From assembly GCA_003132145.1 (NCBI GenBank), contig PKWU01000045.1:1099-65098 (forward strand): a stretch of 64,000 bases of DNA, in the 5' to 3' direction. Positions 50,370-63,827 of the stretch are shown here, in pieces; position 1 is the first letter of the stretch; every line of letters starts with the position of its first letter. This DNA comes from Granulicella sp. GTDB lineage: Bacteria; Acidobacteriota; Terriglobia; Terriglobales; Acidobacteriaceae. A program made the translations under genes and the position numbers. The notes under the pieces are model-generated. The model was not told the origin of the DNA. It was given only the letters and a program-made list of their open reading frames with translations, and did not search any database.

Positions 50370-52526
50370 ATGCGAATGCTCTATTCCAAGCTGCTCCGAT
50401 CGACTCTCGCCATTTGCTCTGTTGCACTGGCCGCGGGGGCTGGAACGCTATGTTGCGGTGCGCAGTTGACGGGGCAGAACAAGCCGGTCGGCAGCGCGGA
50501 CCAGGCAGCCACAATCAAGGTGACGTCGCGGCTGATCATCGAGACCGTGGGGGTGAAGGACAAGAAGGGGAATCCCATCGGCGGGTTGAGCGCGAAGGAC
50601 TTCTCGATCACCGAAGACGGCGTGGCGCAGAAGATCAGCTTCTGCGAACACCAGGTGTTGACGGAGGATGCCACGCCGCTGGGGGTAACTCCTGCCGGCG
50701 AAGAGAACGTCAAGATCTACAACCGGCTGGCGCGGACCCAGATTGCGCCGGAGTCGGCGGGGGAGATCCGATACAAGGACCACCGACTGCTGGCGCTGTA
50801 CTTCGATATGACGACGATGCCACAGTCGGACCAGATGCGCGCGCTGGAGGCCGCGCAGAAGTTCATCCGGACGCAGATGACATCGGCGGACCTTGTGGCT
50901 ATATTGCGATACTCCGGAAGCTCCGTCGATATACTGCAGGACTTCACAGCCGACCGAAACCATTTGCTGAGCATTCTGGAGACGATGGTGGTGGGAGAAG
51001 GCCAGGAGGGCGCGGAGGTGGCCAACGACGACAGCTCCTCCGATACCGGCGCGGCCTTCGGGCAGGACGACAGCGAGTTCAACATCTTTACCACGGACCG
51101 CCAACTGGCCGCGTTGCAGACGGCTGCCGAGGCGCTGGGACGGTTGAATGAGAAGAAGTCGCTGATCTACTTTGCCAGCGGCCTGAACCTGAATGGGCTG
51201 GACAACCAGGCGCAACTGGTGGCCACCGAGCAGGCGGCGATCCGCGCAGGCGTGTCGTTCTGGCCGATCGACGCTCGCGGGCTGGTGGCGTCGGGGCCGC
51301 TGGGCGATGCGACGCAAGGCTCGCAGGGCGGCTCGGCGATGTATACCGGGGGAGCCGCGTCGGCGATGATGAGCCGCTTTGCGCGCTCGCAGGACACGCT
51401 GTTTGCGCTGGCCGGAGATACCGGGGGAAAGGCGCTGCTGGACAACAACGACCTGGGCCGGGGGATTGTGAATGCGCAGCACGCGCAATCGGATTACTAC
51501 ATTCTGGGCTACTACACGAGCAATACGGCGGTGAACGGGAAGTTCCGCAAGGTGAAGGTTACGTTGAACTCGGAGATGGCCGCCAATCTGGACTTCCGGC
51601 AGGGGTACTTCGGAGAGAAGGAGTGGGGCAAGTTTACGACCGCGGACAAAGAGCGCCAACTGGAGGATGCGCTGATGCAGGGTGATCCGTGGACGGAACT
51701 CACGATTGCGGTGGAGATCAATTACTTCCAGTTGAACAAAGCGGAGTATTTCGTTCCGGTGTTTGTGAAGGTTCCCGGGCGTGAGCTTGCGCTGGCGAAA
51801 CGAGGGGGCGCCGACCGGACGCATATCGACCTTGTGGGGGAGATCAAGGACGACTACGGCGGGACGACGCAGACCAATATCCGCGACCACTTCGATGCAA
51901 AGCTGAGCGACGCCACGGCGACGGAGTGGGCCAAGCGCCCGGTTGTGTTCTCGTCCGGATATACGCTGTTGCCGGGCAAGTACACGATCAAAGTGCTTGC
52001 GCGGGATGACGAGACGGGCAGGATTGGGACGTTCCAGACCAGCTTTGTGGTTCCCAACCTGAGTAAGGAGACGAAGCGTGTGCCGATCAGCTCGGTTGTG
52101 CTGTCGGGCCAGCGGCAGCCGTATGCAAACGCGATTTATAACGTTGCCAATGGGAAGGAGCAAGCCAAGCAGACAGCCGTGGACCCGCTGGTGCAGAACG
52201 GGCAGCAGCTGGTGCCGAGCGTGACCCGTGTGTTCAGCAAGGGGCGCAGCCTGTATGTGTTCCTGCAGGCCTACGAGCAAGGGGCGGCGACCGCTCAGCC
52301 GCTGATGGGTTATGTGAGCTTCTATCAGGGGCAGACGAAGGTGTACGAGACGCAGCTCGTGGAGGTGTCGCCCAATCCGAATACACGACTGGAGACTGCG
52401 CCACTCAATTTCACGGTTGATCTGAGCCAGCTTCAGCCGGGCAAGTACGACTGTCAGGTGACCGTACTCGATCCAACCGGAGCGAAGGGAGCATTCTGGC
52501 AGGCGCCGATCCTGCTGGTGCCGTAA
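50370..52526 (+). CDS. Acidobacterial VWA-related domain protein
   Basis: LYFDMTTM, KKSLIYFASG, WPIDARGL, LAGDTGGKA, YYILGYY, R.GY. Confidence 0.88.
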   Translation: MRMLYSKLLRSTLAICSVALAAGAGTLCCGAQLTGQNKPVGSADQAATIKVTSRLIIETVGVKDKKGNPIGGLSAKDFSITEDGVAQKISFCEHQVLTEDATPLGVTPAGEENVKIYNRLARTQIAPESAGEIRYKDHRLLALYFDMTTMPQSDQMRALEAAQKFIRTQMTSADLVAILRYSGSSVDILQDFTADRNHLLSILETMVVGEGQEGAEVANDDSSSDTGAAFGQDDSEFNIFTTDRQLAALQTAAEALGRLNEKKSLIYFASGLNLNGLDNQAQLVATEQAAIRAGVSFWPIDARGLVASGPLGDATQGSQGGSAMYTGGAASAMMSRFARSQDTLFALAGDTGGKALLDNNDLGRGIVNAQHAQSDYYILGYYTSNTAVNGKFRKVKVTLNSEMAANLDFRQGYFGEKEWGKFTTADKERQLEDALMQGDPWTELTIAVEINYFQLNKAEYFVPVFVKVPGRELALAKRGGADRTHIDLVGEIKDDYGGTTQTNIRDHFDAKLSDATATEWAKRPVVFSSGYTLLPGKYTIKVLARDDETGRIGTFQTSFVVPNLSKETKRVPISSVVLSGQRQPYANAIYNVANGKEQAKQTAVDPLVQNGQQLVPSVTRVFSKGRSLYVFLQAYEQGAATAQPLMGYVSFYQGQTKVYETQLVEVSPNPNTRLETAPLNFTVDLSQLQPGKYDCQVTVLDPTGAKGAFWQAPILLVP

Positions 52527-53095
52527 TGCCATATCTACTTGCGCTGTAAGCCCGACCCCATAAAACTGCGCTGGGCCCTTGCTCTGGATCTGCTAGGCGT
52601 ACTCTGTGGCGTCAGCGGATAGAGCAGGGCGGGAACCATCCTGCTGGCAACGAGCGCCGTTGCGATTGTGCTCGCGCTGCACCTTGCGCAGCGGTCACAC
52701 GGCCTCGCTAAAGTTCAGGGCATTCACCCCAGCTTTCCGTCGTTCATCCGAATCGCTTACGCATGGCTGGCGGTAGCAGGTGGCATGGGCATCTGGGCGG
52801 CCTTTGCGGACCAACATGGCGGAATCTGGGGCGCATCGCGCCATGCCCTAACGGTCGGCTTCGCAGCGACCATGGTTTTCTCCATCGGGCCACGCATCCT
52901 GCCCCACTTTGCCGGTGTCCGCGCCATCTTCAGCAATACGAAGGCATCCTTCCGTTTGCGTGGAAGGTGCTGCCCCTCTCCGGCATCTTGGAACTCAGCG
53001 CCGTTCTCTTATTCGCGGCCAATATCACTCTCGCCCTCCTGCTCGGCCACTCCGTATTTGCAGCAGATGGTCCGCACGAACATGTTGTGGCGTAG
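52527..53095 (+). pseudogene. NnrS-like membrane protein remnant
   Basis: GASRHALTVGF...RILP. No start codon, in-frame TAG at 52620, frame switch between ...AIFS and YEGILPFAW near 52935. Confidence 0.7.
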
Positions 53096-53208
53096 CGCCA
53101 TCCAGAAATCTACAGCCAGAAAGCAACTTTCACTGCACCAGATGTGTAATTCTCAATCCGAACAGAGTTTCCAGCTTGACCGTGCATATTGACTGGCAAA
53201 TCCATTCG

Positions 53209-53223
53209 TATCGTGTCACGATA
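53209..53223. promoter_or_regulatory. Putative MarR operator TATCGT-N3-ACGATA
   Basis: Matches the palindrome in front of the marR start (58731-58749). Confidence 0.55.
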
Positions 53224-53303
53224 TAGTTGAATCAGGATTTGCCGAGCGTGTCGCGTGCCAAGCATTGCAGATCTATAAATAAGTCGATGAGGCAGGATCT
53301 TTC

Positions 53304-53319
53304 TGTGACTAAAGTCCCT
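53304..53319 (+). promoter_or_regulatory. CRP-type box upstream of qNor
   Basis: TGTGA-ctaaag-TCCCT; -10 TATCTT at 53341. Confidence 0.8.
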
Positions 53320-53411
53320 GCATTGCTTTTGACAGCACGCTATCTTGGTTCTGCCGCATCTCCCCAATGGGATCGATCAATGCACTTCACCTTCTTCAAC
53401 GAGGACAAATT

Positions 53412-55691
53412 ATGAACTACAAGCGGTATTGGTGGGCGCTGGCGATTGTCATCGTCGGTTCGTTTATGGTTCTGGGCGGCGAGGGCCGCAAGATGATCGG
53501 CGGAGCGCCGCCCCTTGCCGATGTCTACACCACGGACGGACAGCTTCTCTTCACCGGCAGTTCCATCACGGATGGACAGGGCGTGTGGCAGTCCATCGGC
53601 GGGCAGGAGATCGGCACCGTCTGGGGCCATGGGGCGTACGTTGCTCCCGACTGGAGCGCCGATTGGCTGCATCGCGAATCCGAGTTCCTACTCAACAGAT
53701 GGGCGATCCGCGACGGCGCGCCCGACTTTGCCGCGCTCAATCTGGATCAGCAGGCCATACTCAAGGCGCGGCTGATTCGCGATATGCGAACCAATACCTA
53801 CGACGCATCGACCAATCGCGTCACCATCGACGCCGATCGCGCGGCTTCTTTCACGCAGCTTGCAGCCTATTATTCCAATGTCTTCGCCAGCGGACGCTCC
53901 GAGTATGCCATTCCGCGCGGCGCTTTGACCAACCTTCAGAAGCAGCGCCAGCTTGCGGCATTCTTCTGGTGGACATCATGGGCGGCCAGCACCCAGCGGC
54001 CCGACTCGACCACCACCTATACCAACAACTGGCCACATGAGCCACTGATTGCCAATGAACTCACCTCTGGCGCGTTGCTCTGGAGCATTCTTAGCATTGT
54101 CGGTCTGCTGGCCGGAATCGGCGGCATGGTCTGGTGGTACGCATCGCAGGAGAAGGCCCTTGTTCACGGCCCCTATCCGGCAACAGATCCCTTCCTGGCA
54201 GTGAAGGCGACACCCTCGCAACGCGCCACGATGAAGTACTTCTTCGTGGTCGTGATCCTGTGGGGCGTGCAGATTGCGATGGGCATCCTGACCGCTCACT
54301 ATGCAGTTGAAGGGAGCGGATTTTATGGCTTCCCACTGGACCGCTATCTGCCCTATGCAGTGACCCGAACGTGGCATCTACAACTCGCTATCTTTTGGAT
54401 CGCCACATCGTGGCTGGCAACGGGCCTCTATGTTGGTCCGGCAGTGACCGGACACGAGCCGAAGTATCAACGGCTCGGCGTCAATGTGCTCTTTGGCGCA
54501 TTGATTCTTGTAGTCGGCGGCTCACTCGCCGGCGAGTGGATGGGCATCCAGCAGCGACTGGGCAATATGTGGTTCTGGTTCGGAAGCCAGGGGTACGAAT
54601 ACGTCGATCTTGGAAGATTCTGGCAGATATTACTCTTCATCGGTCTGGTTCTCTGGCTGGCGTTGATGGTGGCTGCGCTCAAGCCTGCGCTGGTTCGCAA
54701 GAGCGAGGACCGCGCCCTGCTCACACTCTTTCTCATCTCCAGCATCGCGATCCCGCTCTTCTATGCCGCTGGCCTCATGTACGGGCAACGCAGCAATCTC
54801 GTCACCGCCGAGTACTGGCGCTGGTGGGTTGTTCATCTCTGGGTCGAAGGCTTCTTTGAAGTATTTGCAACCGTGGTGATCGCGTTTCTCTTCACGCGAC
54901 TCAAGCTGATCGAGATTCGCACTGCAACCAAGGCCGCTCTTTTTTCGACGACGATATTCCTTTCCGGCGGAATCATCGGCACCTTCCATCACCTGTACTT
55001 TGCAGGCGCAACTCCGGCGGTGATCGCTCTGGGCGCAATCTTCAGCGCGTTCGAGGTTGTGCCGCTCACGCTGGTCGGGTACGAGGCGTGGGAGAACATT
55101 CGTCTTGCACAGCCGATGCAGAAGGCGCCATGGATCGCGAACTACAAGTGGCCGATCTATTTCTTCGTCTCGGTCGCCTTCTGGAACCTGGTTGGAGCGG
55201 GCCTCTTCGGCTTCCTCATCAATCCACCGGTCGCGCTTTACTATGTGCAGGGGTTGAACCTCACTCCCCTTCACGGGCACACTGCGCTCTTCGGCGTGTA
55301 CGGAATGCTCGGGCTGGGGCTCACGCTCTTCTGCATGAGGGCGATGGGGCCGGAACGACCGTGGAAGGAGGGGGCGCTCAAGTTTTCCTTCTGGTCTCTC
55401 AATATCGGCTTGAGCCTCATGGTTCTCCTCAGCCTGTTGCCGGTCGGCCTTCTCCAGGCGTGGGCATCGATCCAGTACGGCACCTGGTACGCGCGTTCTG
55501 CGGAGTTTCTGCAAACGGGACACATGCAGGCTCTACGCTGGATGCGTGTCCCCGGCGATGTTCTGTTTGCCGCTGGAGCCGCGCTCTTCGCTTGGTTCAT
55601 CCTCGGCTTGCTGACCGGCCATTCCTACGACGATACAAAGTCCACTGAAGGAGATACATCGTTGCACGATATGAACAATCGGCTCGCGTAG
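53412..55691 (+). CDS. norB: Quinol-dependent nitric oxide reductase (qNor)
   Basis: GTVWGHGAYVAPDW, RTWHLQ, WVVHLWVEGFFE, GTFHH, HGHTALFGVYG, WMRVPGD. Confidence 0.96.
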   Translation: MNYKRYWWALAIVIVGSFMVLGGEGRKMIGGAPPLADVYTTDGQLLFTGSSITDGQGVWQSIGGQEIGTVWGHGAYVAPDWSADWLHRESEFLLNRWAIRDGAPDFAALNLDQQAILKARLIRDMRTNTYDASTNRVTIDADRAASFTQLAAYYSNVFASGRSEYAIPRGALTNLQKQRQLAAFFWWTSWAASTQRPDSTTTYTNNWPHEPLIANELTSGALLWSILSIVGLLAGIGGMVWWYASQEKALVHGPYPATDPFLAVKATPSQRATMKYFFVVVILWGVQIAMGILTAHYAVEGSGFYGFPLDRYLPYAVTRTWHLQLAIFWIATSWLATGLYVGPAVTGHEPKYQRLGVNVLFGALILVVGGSLAGEWMGIQQRLGNMWFWFGSQGYEYVDLGRFWQILLFIGLVLWLALMVAALKPALVRKSEDRALLTLFLISSIAIPLFYAAGLMYGQRSNLVTAEYWRWWVVHLWVEGFFEVFATVVIAFLFTRLKLIEIRTATKAALFSTTIFLSGGIIGTFHHLYFAGATPAVIALGAIFSAFEVVPLTLVGYEAWENIRLAQPMQKAPWIANYKWPIYFFVSVAFWNLVGAGLFGFLINPPVALYYVQGLNLTPLHGHTALFGVYGMLGLGLTLFCMRAMGPERPWKEGALKFSFWSLNIGLSLMVLLSLLPVGLLQAWASIQYGTWYARSAEFLQTGHMQALRWMRVPGDVLFAAGAALFAWFILGLLTGHSYDDTKSTEGDTSLHDMNNRLA

Positions 55692-55790
55692 GCAGCATAT
55701 AGCCGTAATGCACCTGTACCAGCGCGGCGCCTTTCATGGAACACTCCCCACGAAGGCGCCGCGTGCAACCGCATCGACAAGGAGAGCCAA

Positions 55791-56213
55791 ATGAAACGCT
55801 ACTATAGTGAAGGTGAGGCACTTACCAGGCTTCCCGAATTGGATCAGCCATTGCTTCAATCCAATCTACCCGCAGAGATCGAGAATCTACGACTCGCAGA
55901 CTCGTGGCAACGAGGGACAGGGCGGAGCTCCAAGACACTGTTGAATTCTCCAGCTTGTGGCATTTTGCTAATCGCCATGAAGCAGAACACGGAGACGAAA
56001 GAACATCGCGTAGATGGAAGGATCACGATTCACACCCTCGTCGGCCATATAAGGTTGAGGTTGCCCAATCAAATGGTTGAACTTCCTGCAGGCCATCTGC
56101 TGATGCTCGATCGCGGTATTGCGCATGACGTTCAGGCGGTGGATGAGAGTGTCTTCCTGCTCACTATGTGCTGGCATGGTGGCGCCGCCAGAACAGCTCC
56201 TGACAACGTATAG
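55791..56213 (+). CDS. Cupin-fold protein
   Basis: EHRVDGRITIHTLVG, HDVQAVDESVFLLT. Confidence 0.75.
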   Translation: MKRYYSEGEALTRLPELDQPLLQSNLPAEIENLRLADSWQRGTGRSSKTLLNSPACGILLIAMKQNTETKEHRVDGRITIHTLVGHIRLRLPNQMVELPAGHLLMLDRGIAHDVQAVDESVFLLTMCWHGGAARTAPDNV

Positions 56214-56283
56214 GAGGCGCGCGCATTGCGGCTTGCCGCGTGCAACAGAATCCAACAAGTAGCTTCACTCAAAGGAGAAGTTC

Positions 56284-56607
56284 ATGGACTACACATTCCT
56301 GGCCAACCTGCAGACGGAGTTTGCGCTGCCTGAAAAAGGCATCCTGAGCCGCGTGCTGCACAAGGACGAACACGCCAACGTCACGCTCTTCGGATTCTCC
56401 GCTGGAGAGGAACTCTCTGGGCACTCATCGCCGACTCCGGCTGTTCTCTACTTCATCGAAGGAGAGGCAGAAGTCCAGTTGGGAGAGGATAAGGTCAACG
56501 CCCAGCCAGGCTCATTCGTCTACATGCCTCCCATGCTACCTCACGGCATCTCCGCTAAAACGGCGGTTCGAATGCTGCTCGTTCAGATGAAGGCTCCTGC
56601 GCGCTAA
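56284..56607 (+). CDS. Cupin-domain protein
   Basis: FSAGEELSGH, LPHGISA. Confidence 0.8.
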   Translation: MDYTFLANLQTEFALPEKGILSRVLHKDEHANVTLFGFSAGEELSGHSSPTPAVLYFIEGEAEVQLGEDKVNAQPGSFVYMPPMLPHGISAKTAVRMLLVQMKAPAR

Positions 56608-56631
56608 CCTGAGCGCGTCGTTCGCCGCGCC

Positions 56632-58275
56632 TCACGAGTCTTGCCGTGGCGCGCGTTGAAAGCTGCGGCTCCGCTCCGATTCTCGCTCGACCGCACGCCT
56701 CCGTCCCGACAATAACTCCTGCGCGCTGATGCTCCCGCAGATGCGTCCGCTCTCGCGATCGATCACAGGCATGTTCATCACCCGCGTGGTTGCCATCTCC
56801 TCTGCAACGGCGCGGCAGGTCTCATCCGCATAGGCGAAGATGTCGGGCAGCGTCGCTTGCAGGAGGCTCATCGCGAAGTCTTCGATGGACCCTGGCAGTT
56901 CCGTCATCACCTCCGCAACGATCACCGTTTCTAACGGGTCAACACCATACTCGCGCGACAGGTGATAGCCACGACGGCTGAGCTTTTCCGTCAGGATCGA
57001 TCGCGGCATAATCAGCGACGTCACAAGATAGGACGCAGTACACGCAAGCGCCAGCGGCAGCAGGGCCGGCAAAGCATGGGTCAACTCCAGCGAGAACAGA
57101 ATTGCCGTCAGCGGCACGCCCAGCGAGCCGGAGAGCATCGCCCCCATCGCCATCAACGCCCACAGAGCCTGTGTCTCGCCCGACATGTGCGCCAGCCGCG
57201 CCAGCGTCTCGCCAATGGCCGCGCCGATCATCAGCAACGGTGCCAGCACGCCGCCCGACGTTCCCGAACTCAGCGAAAAGGCCCACATCAGCGACTTGGC
57301 TACCAACAGTCCGAGTAGTAGACCCAGTGGCGCATTTCCGCGCAGCAGTTCTGCGATATTGTCGTACCCAACGCCGAGTCCGCGCGGAAAGAAGAATCCC
57401 CCCACTCCGATCCCGATCCCACCGATCGCAGGCCACCACATCCAATGCACACGCAGCCGACCGCAGAGATGCTCGAATGCGTCCTCGAAGCCATACATCA
57501 TGCGGCTCAGCCCAGCCGCCGCGAAGCCGACCAGTATCCCCAATGGGCCAGCAACCAGCATCGTCGGCCATAAGTGAATCGCCGTGTGCATCTCCACCGG
57601 GAAGAGCGGGCCAGCTCCAAGCCAACTGATGCGCAACGCGCCCGCCATGATGCTGGCCACCGCCACCGGAATCAGCGAGCGCGGTCGCCACTCGAAGAGC
57701 AGCAGCTCGACGGCCAGAAGAATTGCAGCCATCGGTGCCGCAAACGTCGCCGACATTCCCGCCGCCGCGCCTGCTACCAGTAGCGTAGTTCGTTCTGCAT
57801 CGGTCAGATGAAGCCACTGCGCCACCAGCGAGCCGAACGCTCCGCCGGTCATAATGATCGGCCCTTCCGCGCCAAACGGACCACCTGAGCCAATCGCGAT
57901 CGCGGCCGAAAGAGGCTTTAATATCGCGACCAAGGGGTCTATACGCGCGCCTCGTAGCAGGATCGCCTCAATTGCCTCTGGGATTCCGTGACCGCGAATC
58001 TTGTCCGATCCATAGTGCGCGATGAATCCCACCAGAAGCCCGCCAATAATGGGAACCAGCGGCATGATCCATGGAGAGAGGGGCGAACCGGCAGGCCCAA
58101 CCATCGCCAGGCTCAGCCGATGGTAGTAGAACAGGTTTGTCATGAGAGCAATCGCCCTCAGGAGCAGGACAGCCAAAGCTGCCGCGCCTATACCAATAAA
58201 GAGCGCTACCCCACTCAGCAGCCATACCCTGCGATTCACCGTAAAGTCGCACAGTGCGGATGGTTGTGATCTCAT
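56632..58275 (-). CDS. CLC-family chloride/proton channel with CBS-like tail
   Basis: GHGIPE, GSGGPFGAEGP, FEW, GTSGGVLAP. Confidence 0.92.
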   Translation of the reverse strand: MRSQPSALCDFTVNRRVWLLSGVALFIGIGAAALAVLLLRAIALMTNLFYYHRLSLAMVGPAGSPLSPWIMPLVPIIGGLLVGFIAHYGSDKIRGHGIPEAIEAILLRGARIDPLVAILKPLSAAIAIGSGGPFGAEGPIIMTGGAFGSLVAQWLHLTDAERTTLLVAGAAAGMSATFAAPMAAILLAVELLLFEWRPRSLIPVAVASIMAGALRISWLGAGPLFPVEMHTAIHLWPTMLVAGPLGILVGFAAAGLSRMMYGFEDAFEHLCGRLRVHWMWWPAIGGIGIGVGGFFFPRGLGVGYDNIAELLRGNAPLGLLLGLLVAKSLMWAFSLSSGTSGGVLAPLLMIGAAIGETLARLAHMSGETQALWALMAMGAMLSGSLGVPLTAILFSLELTHALPALLPLALACTASYLVTSLIMPRSILTEKLSRRGYHLSREYGVDPLETVIVAEVMTELPGSIEDFAMSLLQATLPDIFAYADETCRAVAEEMATTRVMNMPVIDRESGRICGSISAQELLSGRRRAVERESERSRSFQRAPRQDS

Positions 58276-58727
58276 CGAGTCTTCGAACCAGCAGAATCTT
58301 GCGCGGACATCCCGATGCGCTTCAACGCCTTCGCTAGGCGCGGTGCCATCTCTTTCAGCTCCCGTGCATGATCTCCAGCAAGCCTGTCCAGAAGCCGCTC
58401 GCCCTTGCGCGTCACTTGTAATATTGCCCGTCGCCGGTCTCTCGTATCCACAGTTCGTGTCAGCAGCCCTTCGCGTTCCGACCGGTTGACCAGCTCCACC
58501 ACGCTGTGGTGCCGCAGACTGAGCCGTTCTGCTGCATACGCGATCGTCACAGCCTCGCCCTCTGGCGCGCCCGCCACTTGCAACAGGAGCTGGTGCTGCT
58601 GCGGCTGTAGTCCTACAGCTACCGCCGCGCGTTCGCTGAAGTGAAGAAACTGACGCAATTCATAACGAAACTCAGCCAGAGTCCTAAACAGCAATTGCGG
58701 ATCGGGTGCCTTTGATCGGGTCCTCAT
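58272..58727 (-). CDS. MarR-family regulator
   Basis: LAEFRYELRQF, LRHHSVVELVNR, DRRR. Confidence 0.9.
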   Translation of the reverse strand: MRTRSKAPDPQLLFRTLAEFRYELRQFLHFSERAAVAVGLQPQQHQLLLQVAGAPEGEAVTIAYAAERLSLRHHSVVELVNRSEREGLLTRTVDTRDRRRAILQVTRKGERLLDRLAGDHARELKEMAPRLAKALKRIGMSAQDSAGSKTR

Positions 58728-58730
58728 ATA

Positions 58731-58749
58731 TATATCGTTACACGATATA
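58731..58749. promoter_or_regulatory. Perfect palindrome TATATCGT-N3-ACGATATA, probable MarR autoregulatory operator
   Basis: Located 3 bp upstream of the marR ATG. Confidence 0.7.
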
Positions 58750-58862
58750 GAAGCTCCTGCAAACTCCTTGTACATCCCGATCGCCGGTAAACACCATGAA
58801 CTTCGCTTTCGGTCTACTGCATGTTCGATAGGATGCCTGAGTGGCCATCGCTCTCCGCCCGC

Positions 58863-58878
58863 AGTGACTTAAGTCCTA
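58863..58878 (+). promoter_or_regulatory. CRP-type box upstream of the membrane ferredoxin
   Basis: AGTGA-cttaag-TCCTA; -10 TATCGT at 58901. Confidence 0.78.
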
Positions 58879-58924
58879 CACGGAGCTTCTCTCTTTTGGG
58901 TATCGTGGACAGTAGAAGGATGCC

Positions 58925-60055
58925 ATGTCTACCGGAACCGCGTTTCCACTCGCAGCAACCACATCCGAAAGACTCCCCGCGAAACAGAGAAAGCCTCTCG
59001 TACGCCGCATTTTGCGTGACCGCTCGCAGCAGGTCCGCCGCTCGGTGCAGCTCGCGTTTCTTATGTTGAATGCGTGGATCGCGGTGGAGTTCCTGATGTG
59101 GGTGCGCTACTTTGAGAGTCAGGGCCAGACTCGCTATGTTGAACGCCCGGCGGGGGTGGATGGATGGCTTCCCATTGCAGGCCTGATGAATCTGAAGTAC
59201 TTTATTGTGACCCATCATGTCCCGGCGGTCCATCCCGCGGCGATGGTACTGGTCGCCATATTTCTGCTATCGAGCCTGCTGCTGAAAAAGACGTTCTGCT
59301 CCTGGCTCTGCCCCGTGGGCACGATCTCCGAGGGCCTGTGGAAGCTCGGCCGCAAACTTTTTTACCGCAACTTCACTGTGCCCCGTTGGCTCGATCTCCC
59401 CCTGCGCAGCCTGAAATATCTGCTGATGGCCTTCTTCGTCTTCATTGTGATCAGCATGTCGGCAGAGGCCCTGAACGACTTCCTGATTGCGCCCTTTGGC
59501 ATCATTGCAGACGTCAAGATGCTCAACTTCTTCCGCGAAATTAGCCTGCTTGGGATGGCAGTCCTTGCGTTGCTAATGTTGCTCTCTGTCGTTATCCAGA
59601 ACTTCTGGTGCCGGTTTCTCTGTCCCTATGGGGCGTTGATGGGCATCGTCTCCACGTTGAGTCCGGTGAAGATTCGTCGCGATGCGCAGGCCTGCATCGA
59701 CTGCGGCAAGTGCAATAAGGCCTGCCCATCCAGCCTTCCGGTGGACCAGCTGCTACAGATTCGGTCCGTGGAGTGCACCAGTTGCATGGAGTGCGTCGCG
59801 GTCTGTCCGGCAGAGAACGCGCTGCAGCTCTCCCTGCCGCCGCGCAGGCACAACGACCGCGCTGAGTCTGTGAGAAGTGCATCTGCCGCTCGCTGGCGAT
59901 ATCGCGCGCTCGATCCACGGCAAGTTGCGGCGATTCTGGCGATCATCTTCTTCGGACTGATCGGGATGGCTCGCGCAACCGGACACTGGCAAACCCATGT
60001 TTCGCGCGATATGTATATGCAATTGGTGCCCCATGCGGATGAATACGGCCATTAG
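58925..60055 (+). CDS. Membrane 4Fe-4S binding protein (NapH/MauN-like)
   Basis: FCSWLCPVG, WCRFLCPYG, CIDCGKCNKACP, CTSCMECVAVCP. Confidence 0.9.
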   Translation: MSTGTAFPLAATTSERLPAKQRKPLVRRILRDRSQQVRRSVQLAFLMLNAWIAVEFLMWVRYFESQGQTRYVERPAGVDGWLPIAGLMNLKYFIVTHHVPAVHPAAMVLVAIFLLSSLLLKKTFCSWLCPVGTISEGLWKLGRKLFYRNFTVPRWLDLPLRSLKYLLMAFFVFIVISMSAEALNDFLIAPFGIIADVKMLNFFREISLLGMAVLALLMLLSVVIQNFWCRFLCPYGALMGIVSTLSPVKIRRDAQACIDCGKCNKACPSSLPVDQLLQIRSVECTSCMECVAVCPAENALQLSLPPRRHNDRAESVRSASAARWRYRALDPRQVAAILAIIFFGLIGMARATGHWQTHVSRDMYMQLVPHADEYGH

Positions 60056-60065
60056 ATCCATCCAG

Positions 60066-60770
60066 CTAAGGCATTGGCGTCAGAAGCGCACTGAGACCCT
60101 TCTTGTCCTTCACTACAATTTCGCGGGCATCCACATCCAGCAGGCCTTCAGCCTGCAGCCGCATCAGGTTGCGCGAGATTAGTTCGCGCACGGTTCCAAG
60201 CTGGTTGGCCAACTCCTGGTGGCTGGCGGGCAGCAGGAATTCGATGCCGCGCCCGGTCTGCTTGCCTTCGCTCTCCGCGAGACGCAGCAGGGTAGAAATA
60301 AGCCGCTGACGGATGGTGGTGAATGAAAGCTCCTCGATGATGCCGACCAGCCGCCGCAGGCGAGCACCCACTACGGCCAACACCTTGAGCGCAACTGCGG
60401 GGTGCTCCATGCAGTAAGCCTGAAAGTCGCGCCGCGGGATGAAGGCAATCTCAGCGTCTTCAACGGCCATCGCGGACGCGGGGTATGGCCCGCCGTCAAA
60501 GACTGGCAACTCGGCGACAGACTCGCCGGGATGGTTTATGGCCAACACCTGTTCGCGGCCGCCAAGCGATGTCTTGAAGATGCGAATCTTGCCACGCGCG
60601 ATGATGTGCAGGCCATGGCAGAGCTCACCCTCGGTGAAGAGCAGTTCCCCGGCGCGAAACGGCTTGCGCACGGTGCGGGCAGCCAGCAGTTGTATCTCTG
60701 CCGGGGTCAGGTTTGACAGTAGCGCGGTCTTTCCCAGGACAGCCGCCAGACCCATGCGTTCAGTGCTCAT
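60066..60770 (-). CDS. Crp/Fnr-family regulator (HcpR/DNR-like context)
   Basis: cNMP-binding fold; HTH SHQELANQLGTVRELISR; no FNR Cys cluster. Confidence 0.93.
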   Translation of the reverse strand: MSTERMGLAAVLGKTALLSNLTPAEIQLLAARTVRKPFRAGELLFTEGELCHGLHIIARGKIRIFKTSLGGREQVLAINHPGESVAELPVFDGGPYPASAMAVEDAEIAFIPRRDFQAYCMEHPAVALKVLAVVGARLRRLVGIIEELSFTTIRQRLISTLLRLAESEGKQTGRGIEFLLPASHQELANQLGTVRELISRNLMRLQAEGLLDVDAREIVVKDKKGLSALLTPMP

Positions 60771-60879
60771 GTAGGAAAGTCTAGCAGCGCGCGTTGGTGT
60801 GTGTTGAGACAACGAGGCTAATGACGCGATGCCCGGAGAGGCAATCTACTCCGGGCATCGACGATCATGCATCGCACCA

Positions 60880-62523
60880 TTACGCAAGCATCGCGGCAAG
60901 GTCTGCATCCGCCGTAGTGATGGCCATCAGGTTGAACTTCTCATTCAGCAGCGCAAGCACGCCAGGCGAGAGGAACGCAGGAAGCGTTGGCCCGATGCGC
61001 ATGTTGCGCACGCCCAGGTGGAGCAGCGTAAGCAGCACAGCGACGGCCTTCTGCTCGTACCACGACAGCACCAGCGACAGCGGTAGATCATTCACGCCAC
61101 AATCGAAGGCCTTGGCCAGCGCGAGTGCAATCTGTAGCGCCGAGTAGGTATCGTTGCATTGTCCAACGTCGAGCAGCCGAGGCAGTCCGCCGATCTCGCC
61201 AAAGTCAAGCTTGTTGAAGCGGAACTTGCCGCATGCCAGGGTCAGGATGAGGCAGTCCTTCGGAATCGACTCAGCCAGCTCCGTATAGTAGCTACGCCCG
61301 GGACGTGCCCCGTCGCAACCGCCAATGAGGAAGAAGTGGCGAATCGCACCGGCCTTCACCGCATCGATCACGCGGTTGGCCACGCTGAGCACTGCATTGT
61401 GTCCGAAGCCGACCGTAATCTCCTCGCCAGAGCCGTCTTCCGCGTAGCCCGGAGCAAGCAGGGCCGCCGCAATCACCGCGCTGTAGTCCTGATCCGCGAT
61501 GTGCTGCACCCCCGGCCATGCCACCGCACCCGAAGTAAAGATGCGCTGCTTGTAGGCAATCGCAGGCTGCTGAATGCAGTTGGAGGTCATCAGTATTGCG
61601 CCGGGAAATTCGGCAAACTCATCGGCCTGATCGGTCCATGCACCACCGTAGTTCCCCGCCAGATGCTCATATGCCTTGAGCTTCGGATAGCCGTGTGCGG
61701 GCAGCATCTCGCCGTGCGTGTAAACCTGAATGCCGAGCCCCTTCGTCTGTTCCAGCAACGCATAAAGATCGTGCAGATCGTGCCCCGAGACCAGAATCGC
61801 CTTTCCCTTGCGCGCATGAAGCCGAACCTTCGTTGGCTGTGGATGGCCAAACGTTTCAGTATGCGCCTTGTCCAGAATCTCCATAACGCGGTAGTTCAAT
61901 TCGCCGACAGCGAGCGCAGTGGCAAGAAGCTCTTCGACCGTGGGTGCAGAATGGGTGAGGAAGTCGAGGATCTCGTGAATCTTCGCAAACGTCAGCGGAT
62001 CGCCCGCGCCCAGCGCCAGTGCATGCACTGCGTAAGCCGCCACTCCCTTGATTCCGTAGAGCACCAGTTCCTGCAGGTTGGATATCTCTTTTCCATCTGT
62101 CAGAAACCGCGCGGGAAGAAGAACCTGCTTGCCCTGTGCGAGTAATCCATCCAGCGTTGAAGCAGGGATCCATGCAGCCGCACCACCAAGCTCGACCGGC
62201 ACAACGCCCGCCTCGACCGCCGCGCGCTCATACAGATCGCGCGCCGCATCGCGCGTCGCAATCGCCTTAGCAATCAGCCCCACCAGCCGCTCTGGATCGA
62301 AGTTGACGTTGGTCATCGTAGCGAAGACCGCCTGAATCGTAAACGCATCGATCTCTGGGTCGGATGCGCCCTGCTGTCGCGCGCGATACGCGTACATGGA
62401 GATACCCTTGACGGCATGAATCAACAGATCCTGAAGTGTTGCCGTGGTCTCGTCTTTGCCACAGACACCAATCGTCTGACAGCCTACGCCCTGGGAAGTC
62501 TGTTCACACTGGTAGCAAAACAT
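60880..62523 (-). CDS. hcp: Hybrid cluster protein (hydroxylamine/NO reductase)
   Basis: MFCYQCEQT...C...GVCGK, THGEMLPAH, GQCND, SWYEQKA. Confidence 0.97.
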   Translation of the reverse strand: MFCYQCEQTSQGVGCQTIGVCGKDETTATLQDLLIHAVKGISMYAYRARQQGASDPEIDAFTIQAVFATMTNVNFDPERLVGLIAKAIATRDAARDLYERAAVEAGVVPVELGGAAAWIPASTLDGLLAQGKQVLLPARFLTDGKEISNLQELVLYGIKGVAAYAVHALALGAGDPLTFAKIHEILDFLTHSAPTVEELLATALAVGELNYRVMEILDKAHTETFGHPQPTKVRLHARKGKAILVSGHDLHDLYALLEQTKGLGIQVYTHGEMLPAHGYPKLKAYEHLAGNYGGAWTDQADEFAEFPGAILMTSNCIQQPAIAYKQRIFTSGAVAWPGVQHIADQDYSAVIAAALLAPGYAEDGSGEEITVGFGHNAVLSVANRVIDAVKAGAIRHFFLIGGCDGARPGRSYYTELAESIPKDCLILTLACGKFRFNKLDFGEIGGLPRLLDVGQCNDTYSALQIALALAKAFDCGVNDLPLSLVLSWYEQKAVAVLLTLLHLGVRNMRIGPTLPAFLSPGVLALLNEKFNLMAITTADADLAAMLA

Positions 62524-62588
62524 CGTGTATACCGTCCTGATCTAAATTGAGCAGCAACCCGATCCTATGGACGGCATGGTGCGATTAC

Positions 62589-62604
62589 AGCGACTTAAGT
62601 CACT
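62589..62604 (-). promoter_or_regulatory. CRP-type box upstream of hcp
   Basis: Minus strand AGTGA-cttaag-TCGCT; -10 TAGGAT at 62567-62562. Confidence 0.82.
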
Positions 62605-62645
62605 CGGAAGCATGGGAACAGCGATTCCATTTCAACTTTGCACGG

Positions 62646-62661
62646 AGTGACTAAAGTCGCT
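62646..62661 (+). promoter_or_regulatory. CRP-type box upstream of ric
   Basis: AGTGA-ctaaag-TCGCT; -10 TATGGT at 62683. Confidence 0.82.
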
Positions 62662-62707
62662 GCAATCCAAACCGGTGCTCTCTATGGTGATTACAAGGGA
62701 GACCATC

Positions 62708-63496
62708 ATGACAGACCCCACACAGACCGTTCGCGAGATTGCACTGGAACAACCGACCTCGATCCGGGTATTCGAGCACTATGGGATTGGCTACTGCTGC
62801 GGTGGGCGCAAGCCGCTCGCCGAGGCATGCGCAGCCAGCAATCTTGAAGTGGAGGCGGTGCTTGCCGCATTGGAGAATGCAGCCAAGAGTTCAGTTTCAA
62901 CAACGGAAGAGTGGTCGCAAGTCTCACTGGAGAAGCTGAGCGGGCACATCGTAGCCACGCATCACGCGTACGTGAAGAGCGAACTGCCCCGGCTGGCTGT
63001 TTTGGCACAGAAGGTGGTTCTTCGCCACGGCGATACGCAGGCCGAGCTTCCGCTGATCCAGACCAAACTCGCGCAACTGGACGAGGAACTGAGTCAGCAC
63101 CTGTTGAAGGAAGAGGCCGTTCTGTTTCCCTACGTGGTCAAGCTGGAGCGTGCATTAAAGACCGGCAGCGCGATGCCGCATGGATGCTTTGGCACAGTGG
63201 CCAACCCGATCGCCATGATGACGGCGGAGCACGATGCGGCCCACGCGCTCATCGCCGACATTCACCAGCTCAGCAATCATTACGTCACCCCAGTCGGCGC
63301 ATGCCCCACATATCACGCGTTCTACGACGGCCTGAAGGAGTTCGAGCAGGATCTTTGCCAGCACATTCACCTGGAAAACGACATTCTGTTTCCCCGTGCG
63401 ATTCAACTGGAGACAGGGCCCCCCAAACCAACAGATAGCTGGAAAACCGCCTGTGGTAGTTCGATCCCAGCGGAAGTCGTGAATAAGTTGAGCTAA
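62708..63496 (+). CDS. ric: Iron-sulfur cluster repair di-iron protein (RIC/ScdA/YtfE)
   Basis: YCCGG, HHAY, HLLKEEAVLFP, EH, HIHLENDILFP. Confidence 0.95.
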   Translation: MTDPTQTVREIALEQPTSIRVFEHYGIGYCCGGRKPLAEACAASNLEVEAVLAALENAAKSSVSTTEEWSQVSLEKLSGHIVATHHAYVKSELPRLAVLAQKVVLRHGDTQAELPLIQTKLAQLDEELSQHLLKEEAVLFPYVVKLERALKTGSAMPHGCFGTVANPIAMMTAEHDAAHALIADIHQLSNHYVTPVGACPTYHAFYDGLKEFEQDLCQHIHLENDILFPRAIQLETGPPKPTDSWKTACGSSIPAEVVNKLS

Positions 63497-63583
63497 TAGT
63501 GCAGTGAATCAGCCCCCGAGCGATTTCGCAGGGAATTGAATAAGCTCAGTCCAATACGCGGGAAGAGGCACTGGTGAGACGAT

Positions 63584-63697
63584 TAGAGCATTTTCGGTAA
63601 TGGTGTAGTCCGTTGTGGAGCGAGCAACAGCAGATTCCTCCGCTTCGCTACGGAATGACAAACAAAATTGGTCTATAGCAATTCCGAAAATGCTCTA
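63584..63697. mobile_element. 114-bp TA-flanked MITE variant containing a family-A repeat
   Basis: TA-GAGCATTTTCGG...CCGAAAATGCTC-TA. Confidence 0.75.
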
Positions 63698-63716
63698 GTG
63701 CAAACACGCCAAAAAA

Positions 63717-63776
63717 GGACTTAAAATCCGCAGACCGTAACAGGTCGTGGGAGTTCAAGTCTCCCTCCGGGCACCA
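63717..63776 (+). pseudogene. 3' fragment of tRNA-Leu(TAA), probable att site
   Basis: GGA-CTTAAAA-TCCGC, variable arm GACC/GGTC, T arm GGGAG-TTCAAGT-CTCCC, TCCGGGC-ACCA. No 5' acceptor strand or D arm upstream. Confidence 0.85.
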
Positions 63777-63827
63777 TGGGACCATCGTTCAACGACAGCT
63801 TACTGCCACAAAACAAAACCATCGGGC

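What the first reader, a model, noticed from the sequence alone, without database searches (positions are those of the whole stretch)
52527..63776. Compact NO-defence block that looks like the remnant of an integrated island
Seen: qNor, Hcp, RIC, an NnrS-like remnant, a membrane ferredoxin and a Crp/Fnr regulator lie within about 11 kb, bounded by a truncated gene on the left and a tRNA fragment on the right. By eye the DNA is less GC3-biased than the flanks (not computed). Established: qNor reduces NO to N2O, Hcp is a high-affinity NO reductase/S-nitrosylase, RIC repairs Fe-S centres. No nitrate, nitrite or N2O reductase is in the window. Inference: a horizontally acquired detox kit that could make this organism an N2O source.
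Basis: partly seen in the sequence, partly recalled or inferred. Interest (0 to 1): 0.65.

Follow-up and report, generated by a model that had tools for sequence, protein, structure and literature searches.

The report
NO-detox island remnant at tRNA-Leu
An 11-kb cluster of nitric-oxide defence genes in a peat-soil Acidobacteriaceae genome sits at the far end of DNA that was once inserted into a leucine tRNA gene, so this N2O-producing detox capacity looks like a mobile trait shared among related soil bacteria, though every part is of a known kind.

Summary
Window 52527-63776 carries an NnrS-like pseudogene, qNor, two small cupins, a ClC/CBS transporter, MarR, a NapH-like membrane ferredoxin, a Crp/Fnr regulator, Hcp and RIC. 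GC3 is 0.55-0.72 against a genome median of 0.81, which puts the block in the lowest 2-3% of 8-gene runs.

The tRNA piece at 63717-63776 is a genuine attR. It is 97-98% identical to the intact tRNA-Leu(UAA) of the nearest relatives but only 85% to this genome's own gene on contig C63. That gene is a chimera (native 5' half, shared 20-nt core, foreign 3' part) followed by a truncated tyrosine integrase (attL). Relative G066 shows the empty site: intact tRNA-Leu directly beside the same ATPase.

Orthologous qNor occurs in 6 and Hcp in 2 of 200 sampled genus members. The cluster type itself is common across Acidobacteriaceae, with a conserved Crp-type box upstream of qNor in 75 of 79 loci. The donor was therefore a relative, not a distant phylum.

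No nosZ, nirK, nirS, Nar/Nap or NrfA was found in the 96%-complete genome.

Independent assemblies reproduce both junctions. What lies between attL and attR is unresolved. All components are of known kinds.

The parts
50370..52526 (+). Left flank: 718-aa hypothetical protein, last gene of a conserved TIGR03435-like / outer-membrane barrel / hyp718 cassette. GC3 is 0.81, like the host.
   Evidence: orthologues at 62-68% identity in many genus members, with different downstream DNA in each.
52527..53100 (+). NnrS-like (COG3213-type) membrane-protein pseudogene. It is truncated at the 5' end, has a TAG at 52620 and a 73-bp deletion at 52936/52937. It marks the left breakpoint of the block.
   Evidence: No Pfam or NCBIfam hit, even at E<=1. 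Some JGI homologues are named 'uncharacterized protein involved in response to NO'. The N-terminal half is found nowhere in the genome.
53305..53318 (+). Crp/Fnr-type box GTGACTAAAGTCCC upstream of qNor.
   Evidence: 4 sites in the window, all in the block, against 0.26 expected; box present upstream of qNor in 75 of 79 Acidobacteriaceae loci.
53412..55691 (+). Quinol-dependent nitric oxide reductase (qNor/NorZ). The longest ORF starts at 53367; other assemblies aa starting at MNYKRYWW.
55791..56213 (+). Small cupin A (140 aa), weak cupin signal, GC3 0.55.
   Evidence: Conserved next to qNor in 9 of 80 loci.
56284..56607 (+). Small cupin B (107 aa, Cupin_2), probably co-transcribed with qNor.
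   Evidence: Present in 31 of 80 loci downstream of qNor. No box of its own in 0 of 31 loci.
56632..58275 (-). ClC-family anion channel/antiporter with a C-terminal CBS domain.
   Evidence: Adjacent to the qNor cluster in 16 of 80 loci.
58272..58775 (-). MarR-family regulator, overlapping the ClC start.
58864..58877 (+). Crp/Fnr-type box upstream of the ferredoxin gene.
   Evidence: 9 of 12 loci.
58925..60055 (+). NapH/MauN-like membrane polyferredoxin (Fer4_5 plus a 2x[4Fe-4S] domain). Proposed electron donor to Hcp.
   Evidence: TIGR02163 at 92.6 bits, below its cut-off. It lies directly downstream of hcp in L031, L043 and L050.
60066..60812 (-). Crp/Fnr-family regulator without an N-terminal Cys cluster, so HcpR/DNR/NnrR-like rather than FNR-like.
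   Evidence: sequence printed.
60880..62523 (-). Hybrid cluster protein Hcp with N-terminal CX2CX8CX5C spacing. It is an indel relative to the nearest cluster (G165/L012), which lacks it.
62590..62660 (.). Divergent hcp/RIC promoter region with two Crp/Fnr-type boxes (62590-62603 and 62647-62660).
   Evidence: RIC: 23 of 24 loci.
62675..63496 (+). RIC/YtfE/ScdA di-iron protein for repair of iron-sulfur centres.
63583..63700 (.). MITE-like repeat of about 115 bp with inverted ends, inserted between RIC and attR.
   Evidence: about 9 near-full copies at 87-96% identity on other contigs, and more than 100 partial core copies.
63717..63776 (+). attR: the displaced native 3' part of tRNA-Leu(UAA), from the anticodon stem to CCA. 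The first 20 nt, GGACTTAAAATCCGCAGACC, are the core shared with attL.
63821..64000 (-). 3' end of the MgtA-like P-type ATPase gene, the native neighbour of tRNA-Leu(UAA) in relatives. GC3 is 0.83. It continues beyond the window.

Best explanation
**What it is.** The block is a co-regulated nitrosative-stress gene cluster of a type that is widespread in Acidobacteriaceae.

**How it most likely works (inferred).**
- qNor reduces membrane-dissolved NO to N2O with quinol electrons.
- Hcp reduces NO or hydroxylamine in the cytoplasm, probably fed by the NapH-like membrane ferredoxin.
- RIC repairs nitrosylated Fe-S centres.
- A Crp/Fnr-family activator of the HcpR/DNR kind binds GTGAYT-N-AAGTC boxes in front of qNor, the ferredoxin gene, hcp and RIC.
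- The ClC-MarR pair and the cupins are accessory genes of unknown role.

**How it got here.** In this genome the cluster is the surviving distal end of DNA that a tyrosine-integrase element inserted into tRNA-Leu(UAA).
- The crossover lay in the anticodon stem-loop.
- The complete gene on contig C63 now carries a foreign 3' part and is followed by the integrase remnant (attL).
- The native 3' half was pushed to window 63717-63776 (attR), still beside its native ATPase neighbour.
- The donor was another Acidobacteriaceae lineage with lower GC3.
- Afterwards the element decayed: integrase and NnrS-like gene truncated, a MITE inserted, and at least one rearrangement separating attL from attR.

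**Consequence.** With no nosZ, the N2O made is an end product.

**Shown versus inferred.** Gene identities, the att chimera, the empty site, the sparse distribution, the composition and the box conservation are shown. Enzyme roles, the electron path, the regulator-box pairing and the block being cargo of that element are inferred.
For: **Gene identities:**

**att structure**
- The fragment is 97-98% identical to the tRNA-Leu(UAA) of G066, G171, G205, G165 and G055, but 85% to the genome's own C63 gene.
- The 5' half of the C63 tRNA is identical to G066's. The 20-nt core is shared. The variable and T arms differ by paired changes.
- A 152-aa PF00589 integrase C-terminus with GC3 0.67 follows it.

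**Empty site**
- G066 reads TpiA .. tRNA-Leu - ATPase - SLT.
- Collinearity with the window begins exactly at 63717.

**Composition**
- GC3 runs at 0.69-0.70 up to attR and then steps to 0.83.

**Sparse distribution**
- qNor orthologues in 6 of 200 sampled genus members and Hcp in 2 of 200.
- The nearest relatives G205, G055, G154 and G130 lack qNor.

**Different genomic contexts**
- The cluster sits in different contexts in G165, G205, G094, G059 and G103.

**Synonymous sites**
- Against G165, fourfold-site identity is 0.73-0.90 in all 8 shared cluster genes. The median of 31 background genes is 0.60 (Mann-Whitney p=0.002).
- Cluster GC3 (0.69) matches G165's genome (0.67), not this genome's background (0.78).

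**Regulon:**

**Real junctions**
- At least 6 independent assemblies reproduce hyp718-remnant-qNor...RIC-ATPase. Several reproduce TpiA-integrase fragment-rpsL.

**No other N-oxide reductases:**
Against: - attL and attR lie on different contigs. Core genes abut both: rpsL-rpsG-fusA after the integrase remnant, and hyp718 before the block. A further rearrangement must be assumed, and the block could have been brought next to attR secondarily.
- No mobility gene lies inside the window.
- Fer4_5-Crp-RIC is present in most near relatives at identities like housekeeping genes (G205: 82-89% against a median of 79%). The NnrS-like remnant is closest to G205's gene (84% nt). Part of the cluster may therefore be old in the lineage.
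- The qNor tree places the window in a 5-species clade whose order follows the housekeeping ranking.
- 23% of background genes reach the cluster's synonymous identity.
- Total GC and tetranucleotide usage are not outliers.
- Absence of qNor in G066 rests on a search in which only 2 of 4 candidates were scored.
- Function was not measured.
Confidence: 0.68

Rival explanations
1. The NO cluster is an old, vertically inherited feature of this lineage that most relatives have lost. The tRNA-Leu att scars come from an unrelated element that has since been deleted. The block lies beside attR only because of later rearrangement, by deletion at 52526/52527 or recombination at the MITE.
For: - The cluster type is family-wide: at least 50 of 80 species have Crp, NnrS-like and RIC genes near qNor.
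- The qNor clade order follows the housekeeping ranking.
- G205 keeps NnrS-like, cupinB, MarR, Fer4_5, Crp and RIC with a gap where qNor would be.
- Identities to G205 are like the background.
- Core genes lie next to both att sites.
Against: - GC3 is uniformly about 0.1 below the host right up to attR and matches the integrase remnant.
- Synonymous divergence to G165 is lower than the background.
- At 1-3% prevalence in 200 genus genomes, many independent losses would be needed.
- The cluster sits in a different context in every relative examined.
Confidence: 0.22
2. The block is an assembly or binning chimera. DNA of a different Acidobacteriaceae population was joined to contig C22 at the composition steps.
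For: - The source is a MAG with 3.7% estimated contamination.
- There are sharp GC3 steps at both ends.
- An NN scaffold gap lies about 285 bp right of attR.
Against: - The exact Hcp protein lies on contigs of up to 155 kb from at least 6 independent assemblies (ENA, JGI, NCBI GCA_003161035.1). All share one gene order, SLT-ATPase-RIC-Hcp-Crp-Fer4_5-MarR-ClC-cupin-qNor-(remnant)-hyp718, and an intact 901-aa ATPase.
- The attL side is likewise reproduced.
Confidence: 0.02
3. The block serves energy conservation rather than defence. qNor would act as a terminal reductase, with NO coming from neighbours or from chemodenitrification in acid peat.
For: - qNor draws on the quinol pool.
- The genome has several multihaem cytochromes.
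- NO-reducing 'truncated denitrifier' MAGs are common in tundra and peat (PMC9188126).
Against: - From general knowledge, qNOR is usually regarded as non-electrogenic or weakly so.
- Its partners here are the classic stress genes hcp, RIC and NnrS-like under one Crp-type regulon (PMC1274295).
- No nirK, nirS, Nar or Nap was found.
- Published genome surveys read norZ in nitrate- and nitrite-reductase-free Acidobacteria as detoxification (PMC5900883).
Confidence: 0.08

Closest known systems
NO-responsive Crp/Fnr regulons (HcpR, DNR, NnrR) with hcp, dnrN (RIC), nnrS and norB as core members (Rodionov et al. 2005, PMC1274295)
   Same: The gene set matches: hcp, a ferredoxin-like partner, dnrN/RIC, an nnrS-like gene and norB. 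A Crp/Fnr-family regulator is encoded in the cluster, and palindromic TGA-N6-TCA-type boxes lie in front of the target genes.
   Different: - The host family is Acidobacteriaceae, and the box variant is GTGAYT-N-AAGTC.
- The ferredoxin is a NapH-like membrane protein rather than FrdX or Hcr.
- The cluster also holds ClC-MarR and small cupins.
- Which subfamily the regulator belongs to, and what it senses, were not tested.
tRNA-gene-targeted genomic islands integrated by tyrosine recombinases (attL = tRNA with element-derived 3' part plus integrase; attR = displaced 3' fragment)
   Same: - A chimeric complete tRNA and a displaced native 3' half share a 20-nt core.
- An integrase remnant lies next to attL.
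- The cargo-side DNA has atypical GC3.
- The empty site is seen in a relative, and the cargo is sporadic in the genus.
   Different: - The integrase is reduced to 152 C-terminal residues.
- attL and attR are no longer linked on one contig, and core genes abut both.
- No other mobility genes remain.
- The cargo comes from the same bacterial family.
Non-denitrifying Acidobacteria that carry norB alone (Eichorst et al. 2018, PMC5900883; Pessi et al. 2022, PMC9188126)
   Same: A subdivision-1 genome with qNor (norZ) and no dissimilatory nitrate or nitrite reductase and no nosZ. The proposed role is detoxification, with N2O as end product.
   Different: This case additionally resolves the gene neighbourhood, its regulon, its sparse distribution within one genus and an integration scar.
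Solved qNOR enzymes (Alcaligenes xylosoxidans 6qq5/6t6v, Neisseria meningitidis 6fwf/6l1x, Geobacillus stearothermophilus 3ayf)
   Same: Full-length alignment of residues 18-752 at 549-806 bits. A single polypeptide with an N-terminal cytochrome-c-like fold and a haem-copper-oxidase core.
   Different: Active-site and quinol-site residues were not inspected one by one. Activity was not measured.

Membership tests
qNOR (quinol-dependent nitric oxide reductase) | Single NorB-type polypeptide with an N-terminal cytochrome-c-like domain fused to the haem-copper-oxidase core | tested here: met
   PF22085 at 215 bits plus PF00115 at 198 bits. Full-length match at 806 bits to solved qNOR chains, against only 90 bits to cNOR NorB.
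qNOR (quinol-dependent nitric oxide reductase) | No haem-c attachment motif in the N-terminal domain and no adjacent norC | tested here: met
   The sequence printed has no CxxCH. The neighbouring genes are the NnrS-like remnant and a cupin.
qNOR (quinol-dependent nitric oxide reductase) | NO-to-N2O activity with quinol | not testable with these tools
   Needs an enzyme or whole-cell assay.
Hybrid cluster protein (Hcp) | Full-length match to the equivalog model above its cut-off | tested here: met
   NF003658 at 780.6 bits (cut-off 367) and TIGR01703 at 738.8 bits (cut-off 360.8).
RIC / YtfE / ScdA | ScdA_N plus hemerythrin-like di-iron domain, above the equivalog cut-off | tested here: met
   PF04405 plus PF01814. 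TIGR03652 at 218.6 bits against a cut-off of 204.7.
NnrS (PF05940 / COG3213) | Significant match of an intact homologue to the NnrS profile | tested here: not met
   - The intact G015 homologue has no Pfam or NCBIfam hit, even at E<=1.
- None of the 120 best database homologues listed carries a Pfam domain.
- Some JGI records name it 'uncharacterized protein involved in response to NO', a COG-level label.
- It is therefore treated as NnrS-like only.
HcpR/DNR/NnrR-type NO-responsive Crp/Fnr regulator | cNMP-binding-like sensor plus Crp-type HTH, no FNR Cys cluster, palindromic boxes before the NO genes | tested here: met
   Domains. Four boxes in the window, all in the block, against 0.26 expected. 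The boxes are conserved across 75 of 79 qNor promoters and 23 of 24 RIC promoters.
HcpR/DNR/NnrR-type NO-responsive Crp/Fnr regulator | NO (haem) sensing and binding of this regulator to these boxes | not testable with these tools
   Needs EMSA, reporter assays and spectroscopy. No equivalog model reached its cut-off.
tRNA-integrated genomic island | attL/attR: a complete tRNA with a replaced 3' part, plus a displaced native 3' fragment sharing a core | tested here: met
tRNA-integrated genomic island | Tyrosine integrase next to the tRNA | tested here: met
   A 152-aa PF00589 C-terminal fragment lies 211 bp downstream of the C63 tRNA. It is truncated.
tRNA-integrated genomic island | Uninterrupted site in a close relative | tested here: met
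   G066 has tRNA-Leu directly beside the orthologous ATPase (92.6% nt). Homology to the window starts at 63717.
tRNA-integrated genomic island | Contiguity of attL, cargo and attR | tested here: not met
   attL is on C63 followed by rpsL-rpsG-fusA. attR is on C22 preceded by the block and then core genes. No contig joins them.
tRNA-integrated genomic island | Atypical composition and sporadic distribution of the cargo | tested here: met
   - GC3 lies in the lowest 2-3% of runs.
- qNor is in 6 of 200 and Hcp in 2 of 200 sampled genus genomes.
- Tetranucleotide usage is not atypical.

The most novel reading that the evidence does not exclude
Acidobacteriaceae may share a modular, mobile 'nitrosative-stress island': qNor, Hcp, RIC, a Crp-type regulator, a Pfam-less NnrS-like protein, small cupins, and ClC or HPP transporters. 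It would move between lineages by integration at tRNA genes such as tRNA-Leu(UAA). N2O-forming NO reduction in peat and permafrost soils would then be a transferable trait rather than a lineage property. The conserved cupins and the NnrS-like family would be unrecognised working partners of qNor.
Probability: 0.2. Interest if true: 0.55.

Novelty: new member of a known kind. Interest (0 to 1): 0.4.

Why it matters
This case shows a widely assembled peat population whose only N-oxide enzymes are NO reducers. Its exact Hcp protein is listed in 67 blocks of the public assembly collection. The NO reducers are carried on DNA with an integration scar and are rare among its congeners. Gene-based predictions of which Acidobacteria emit N2O therefore cannot be extrapolated from taxonomy. 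The conserved box and gene set also give a ready-made regulon to test in cultivated carriers such as Telmatobacter bradus.

Tried and rejected
1. **Empty-site test with the left flank.** hyp718 orthologues exist in many genus members, but the downstream DNA differs in every one. The right-flank ATPase had no orthologue in the first 24 genus genomes. The test was therefore uninformative. The site was found only later through the tRNA fragment.
2. **MITE splitting an intact tRNA.** There is no tRNA 5' half upstream of the MITE or anywhere on C22.
3. **Local inversion splitting the tRNA, with the 5' half left between ATPase and SLT.** No match was found there.
4. **Single inversion with a breakpoint inside the NnrS-like gene.** The N-terminal half is not in the genome. 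rpsL is not downstream of hyp718 in 10 distant relatives. This stays unresolved rather than excluded.
5. **Intrinsically low GC3 of these genes.** In 51 other loci the cluster's GC3 equals that of its flanks (mean difference -0.006, p=0.26).
6. **tRNA genes enriched next to qNor clusters.** About 15 of 80 loci of 22 kb hold a tRNA, roughly the chance rate.
7. **nosZ search with PF18764.** The control did not ring. I replaced it with a tblastn using a NosZ sequence recalled from memory and then validated at 1048 bits against TIGR04244.
8. **Concatenated query over 200 genomes.** Only 2 candidates per genome were scored, so it cannot be used for per-genome absence of RIC or Hcp. I redid it on 15 genomes and for Hcp alone.
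9. **Read support.** Independent assemblies were used instead.
10. **Assembly chimera.** Rejected.

Full report
**1. Source and setting**

- The window is contig C22:1099-65098 of an 89-contig, 3.17-Mb MAG with 61.8% GC, estimated 96% complete and 3.7% contaminated.
- All close homologues of its genes come from Acidobacteriaceae. Its GTDB genus includes 'Edaphobacter sp. SMAG_U13992' (G015, which is L064).

**2. What is in 52527-63776**

Pfam, NCBIfam and PDB searches identify the following genes:

| Coordinates | Strand | Gene | Evidence |
|---|---|---|---|
| 53367/53412-55691 | + | qNor | 806 bits, full length, to solved qNOR |
| 55791-56213, 56284-56607 | + | two small cupins | Pfam |
| 56632-58275 | - | ClC transporter with CBS domain | Pfam, NCBIfam |
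| 58272-58775 | - | MarR regulator | Pfam |
| 58925-60055 | + | NapH/MauN-like membrane ferredoxin | Fer4_5 |
| 60066-60812 | - | Crp/Fnr regulator | Pfam |
| 60880-62523 | - | Hcp | NF003658, 780 bits |
| 62675-63496 | + | RIC | TIGR03652, above cut-off |

The stretch 52527-53100 is a pseudogene.
- It aligns to the C-terminal 200 residues of intact 385-470-aa membrane proteins that precede qNor in relatives.
- It starts right after the stop codon of the left-flank gene.
- It has a TAG at 52620 and a 73-bp deletion at 52936/52937.
- The intact family has no Pfam or NCBIfam match, even at E<=1. Some JGI records give it the COG-style name 'uncharacterized protein involved in response to NO'. 'NnrS-like' is therefore a resemblance, not a tested membership.

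**3. Composition**

- Block genes have GC3 of 0.55-0.72. The genome median is 0.808, and each block gene lies below the 18th percentile.
- The length-weighted 8-gene run (0.69-0.70) is in the lowest 2-3% of 1705 runs.
- The flanking genes are at 0.81 (left) and 0.83-0.87 (right).
- Total GC (8th-18th percentile) and tetranucleotide distance (50th-88th percentile) of 5-kb windows are unremarkable. Much of window 25-47 kb is also moderately low.
- The low GC3 is not a property of these genes as such. In 51 other Acidobacteriaceae loci the cluster's GC3 equals that of its flanks.

**4. The cluster type is family-wide and forms a regulon**

- A scan of species-representative genomes returned 80 loci with qNor at 77-96% identity, all from Acidobacteriaceae/Acidobacteriota.
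- Neighbours of qNor in these 80 loci:

| Neighbour | Loci of 80 |
|---|---|
| NnrS-like gene | 53-56 |
| Crp/Fnr | 52 |
| RIC or RIC-like | 55 |
| cupin B | 31 |
| the ferredoxin | 17 |
| ClC | 16 |
| MarR | 12 |
| Hcp | 3 (directly upstream of the ferredoxin gene) |

- The motif GTGACTNAAGTCNC with at most 1 mismatch occurs at four places in the window. All lie in the promoters of qNor, the ferredoxin gene, hcp and RIC. Chance would give 0.26.
- Its core is found upstream of qNor in 75 of 79 loci, RIC in 23 of 24 and the ferredoxin gene in 9 of 12. It is absent upstream of cupin B (0 of 31) and ClC (0 of 9).
- A similar palindrome, GGGACTNAAGTCCC, is a common intergenic repeat in this genome, so genome-wide counts of the loose motif are not specific.
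- The gene set matches the published core of NO-responsive regulons: hcp, a ferredoxin-like partner, dnrN (RIC), nnrS and norB (PMC1274295).

**5. Distribution in the genus**

- Among 200 evenly drawn genomes of the genus, an orthologous qNor (83-95% identity) was found in six: G056, G165, G059, G219, G103 and G015.
- Hcp was found in two: G094 at about 90% and G146 at 60%.
- A targeted search of the 15 most relevant genomes gave:
  - G205, G055, G154 and G130, the nearest relatives by Ppx and trigger-factor identity, lack qNor and Hcp.
  - Fer4_5-Crp-RIC is present in most of them.
  - G094 has Fer4_5-Crp-Hcp-RIC arranged as in the window.
- The nearest cluster (L012, which is G165) is collinear at 90% nt from qNor to Crp and again over RIC. 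It lacks hcp, and its right flank differs.
- G205 has NnrS-like, a cytochrome-b561/molybdopterin oxidoreductase, an HPP protein, cupin B, MarR, Fer4_5, Crp and RIC. Transposase genes lie beside RIC and there is no qNor.
- The cluster lies in a different genomic context in every relative examined.

**6. Phylogeny and divergence**

- In a qNor tree the window groups with L012, L014, L013 and L015 (SH-aLRT 95-99). This order follows the housekeeping ranking of those genomes.
- This clade nests among sequences labelled Terracidiphilus, while the genus member G015 falls elsewhere.
- Identity at fourfold-degenerate sites:

| Compared with | Cluster genes | Background genes |
|---|---|---|
| G165 | 0.73-0.90 (all 8 shared genes) | median 0.60, IQR 0.49-0.71 (31 genes); Mann-Whitney p=0.002; 23% reach the cluster's minimum |
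| G205 | 0.47-0.75 | pooled 0.67 |

- The same background orthologues have GC3 of 0.78 in this genome and 0.67 in G165, whereas the cluster has about 0.69 in both.
- Hcp's nearest relative (G094, about 90% aa) is at 0.52, which is background level.
- Taken together, the qNor-to-Crp segment shares a more recent ancestor with G165's cluster than the two genomes do. It carries the composition of a lower-GC3 Acidobacteriaceae genome.

**7. The tRNA fragment is a genuine attR**

- The 60 nt at 63717-63776 are 97-98% identical to the corresponding part of the intact tRNA-Leu(UAA) of G066, G171, G205, G165 and G055, and 90-93% to most of the genus. They are only 85% identical to this genome's own complete gene at C63:1985-2073.
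- The alignment shows that the C63 gene is a chimera:
  - Its 5' half is identical to G066's.
  - A 20-nt stretch, GGACTTAAAATCCGCAGACC (anticodon stem-loop), is shared with the fragment.
  - The variable and T arms differ by paired, structure-keeping changes.
- 211 bp downstream of the C63 tRNA lies a 152-aa C-terminal piece of a PF00589 tyrosine integrase with GC3 0.67. Next come a tRNA on the other strand and rpsL-rpsG-fusA.
- In G165, G055, G205 and G130 the intact tRNA-Leu lies beside orthologues of the SLT transglycosylase. In G165 and G055 orthologues of the P-type ATPase lie there too. Both genes flank the fragment in the window.
- G066 shows TpiA(-) .. tRNA-Leu(+) - ATPase(-) .. SLT. 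Collinearity with the window begins exactly at 63717 (84.6% over 63717-64059, then 92.6% over the ATPase and SLT). C63 is collinear with G066 over TpiA and the tRNA upstream region.
- This is the standard signature of integration by a tyrosine recombinase, with crossover in the anticodon stem-loop. The window side left of 63717 is the element side.

**8. Not an assembly artefact**

- The exact Hcp protein is listed in 67 blocks of the public collection.
- Six independent contigs of up to 155 kb share the order SLT-ATPase (901 aa, intact)-RIC-Hcp-Crp-Fer4_5-MarR-ClC-cupin-qNor-(remnant)-hyp718. One is from NCBI GCA_003161035.1.
- The TpiA-integrase fragment-rpsL arrangement is likewise reproduced in several assemblies.
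- The NN at window-equivalent 64060-64061 is only a scaffold gap inside the ATPase gene.

**9. What remains open**

- attL and attR lie on different contigs, and core genes abut both. At least one rearrangement after integration has to be assumed.
- The N-terminal half of the NnrS-like gene is nowhere in the genome, so a simple inversion through that gene is not shown.
- The block being the cargo of that element rests on three things: position (immediately element-side of attR), shared low GC3 with the integrase remnant, and sparse distribution. It does not rest on contiguity.
- The Fer4_5-Crp-RIC core may be older in the lineage than the qNor segment or hcp.

**10. Other nitrogen-oxide enzymes in the genome**

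| Enzyme | Result |
|---|---|
| nirK (TIGR02376) | no match; controls responded |
| nirS (PF02239) | no match; controls responded |
| nosZ (PF18764) | control did not respond, so not used |
| nosZ (recalled sequence, validated at 1048 bits to TIGR04244 and 478 bits to the clade II model) | only a CoxB-type cupredoxin at E=0.001 |
| Nar/Nap/Nas (molybdopterin, PF00384) | single hit, a NuoG-like protein |
| NrfA | none among ORFs with three or more CxxCH motifs |

Within the limits of a 96%-complete MAG, the organism has NO reduction (qNor, Hcp) and nothing to consume N2O. Published surveys already describe norZ-only subdivision-1 Acidobacteria and norB-only tundra MAGs, and read them as detoxifiers or truncated denitrifiers (PMC4885859, PMC5900883, PMC9188126).

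**11. Verdict**

- The island-remnant and horizontal-acquisition reading is supported, with the donor inside the family and the element heavily decayed.
- The mechanism is ordinary nitrosative-stress defence.
- Novelty is modest: a new, well-documented member of known kinds.

Noticed in passing
window 63583-63700, and many other contigs of the genome: A MITE-like repeat of about 115 bp with inverted ends (AGAGCATTTTCGG...CCGAAAATGCTCT). It has about 9 near-full copies at 87-96% identity. A 35-45-nt core (CAGATTCCTCCGCTTCGCTACGGAATGACAA) is scattered more than 100 times, often in tandem.
   Followed up: partly
genome-wide, e.g. C7:13538, C16:3708, C29:29287: The palindrome GGGACT(A/G)AAGTCCC recurs in about 18 mostly intergenic places. 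It resembles the Crp-type box of the NO block, so loose motif scans overcount regulon sites.
   Followed up: no
G205 locus L102:16732-19049: In the closest near-complete relative the place of qNor is taken by two genes: a cytochrome-b561/molybdopterin-oxidoreductase fusion (555 aa) and an HPP-family membrane protein. They lie between the NnrS-like gene and cupin B. IS-type transposase genes sit beside RIC.
   Followed up: partly
G015 contig L009 (15.3 kb): This genus member carries a second, 45%-identical qNor paralogue, a DDE-transposase fragment and a radical-SAM/SPASM gene in the same neighbourhood as its NO cluster.
   Followed up: no
relatives' tRNA-Leu(UAA) loci L125, L127, L130: The 3' side of tRNA-Leu(UAA) is variable in the clade. 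G055 has about 6 kb inserted between the tRNA and the ATPase. G205 has 8.4 kb before TpiA. G066 has 6.7 kb between TpiA and the tRNA, and this genome lacks that stretch.
   Followed up: partly
window 44410-52526: A cassette of TIGR03435-like protein(s), a CarboxypepD_reg/OMP beta-barrel protein and a 718-aa hypothetical protein is conserved at 50-68% identity across the genus. It sits in a different context in each genome and has paralogues on C89 and C74.
   Followed up: partly
window-equivalent 64060-64061 (just past the window end): Two Ns interrupt the P-type ATPase reading frame. Other assemblies show an intact 901-aa gene, so this is a scaffold gap and not a pseudogene.
   Followed up: yes
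window about 23700-39500: A Tad/Flp pilus locus (three tandem flp genes, CpaA-F, TadB/C, TadE/G-like genes) has GC3 of 0.68-0.80, also below the genome median.
   Followed up: no
genome contigs C73:17809-26479, C3, C30, C57, C59: Several multihaem c-type cytochromes (5-11 CxxCH motifs), including a NapC/NirT-like protein. None matched NrfA.
   Followed up: partly
L024:3501-4100 (Terracidiphilus sp. bin_61): In one other species an intact tRNA-Leu(UAA) lies about 500 bp upstream of the ferredoxin gene that opens its NO cluster. AT-rich DNA lies between them. This could be a second case of the cluster beside this tRNA, or chance.
   Followed up: partly
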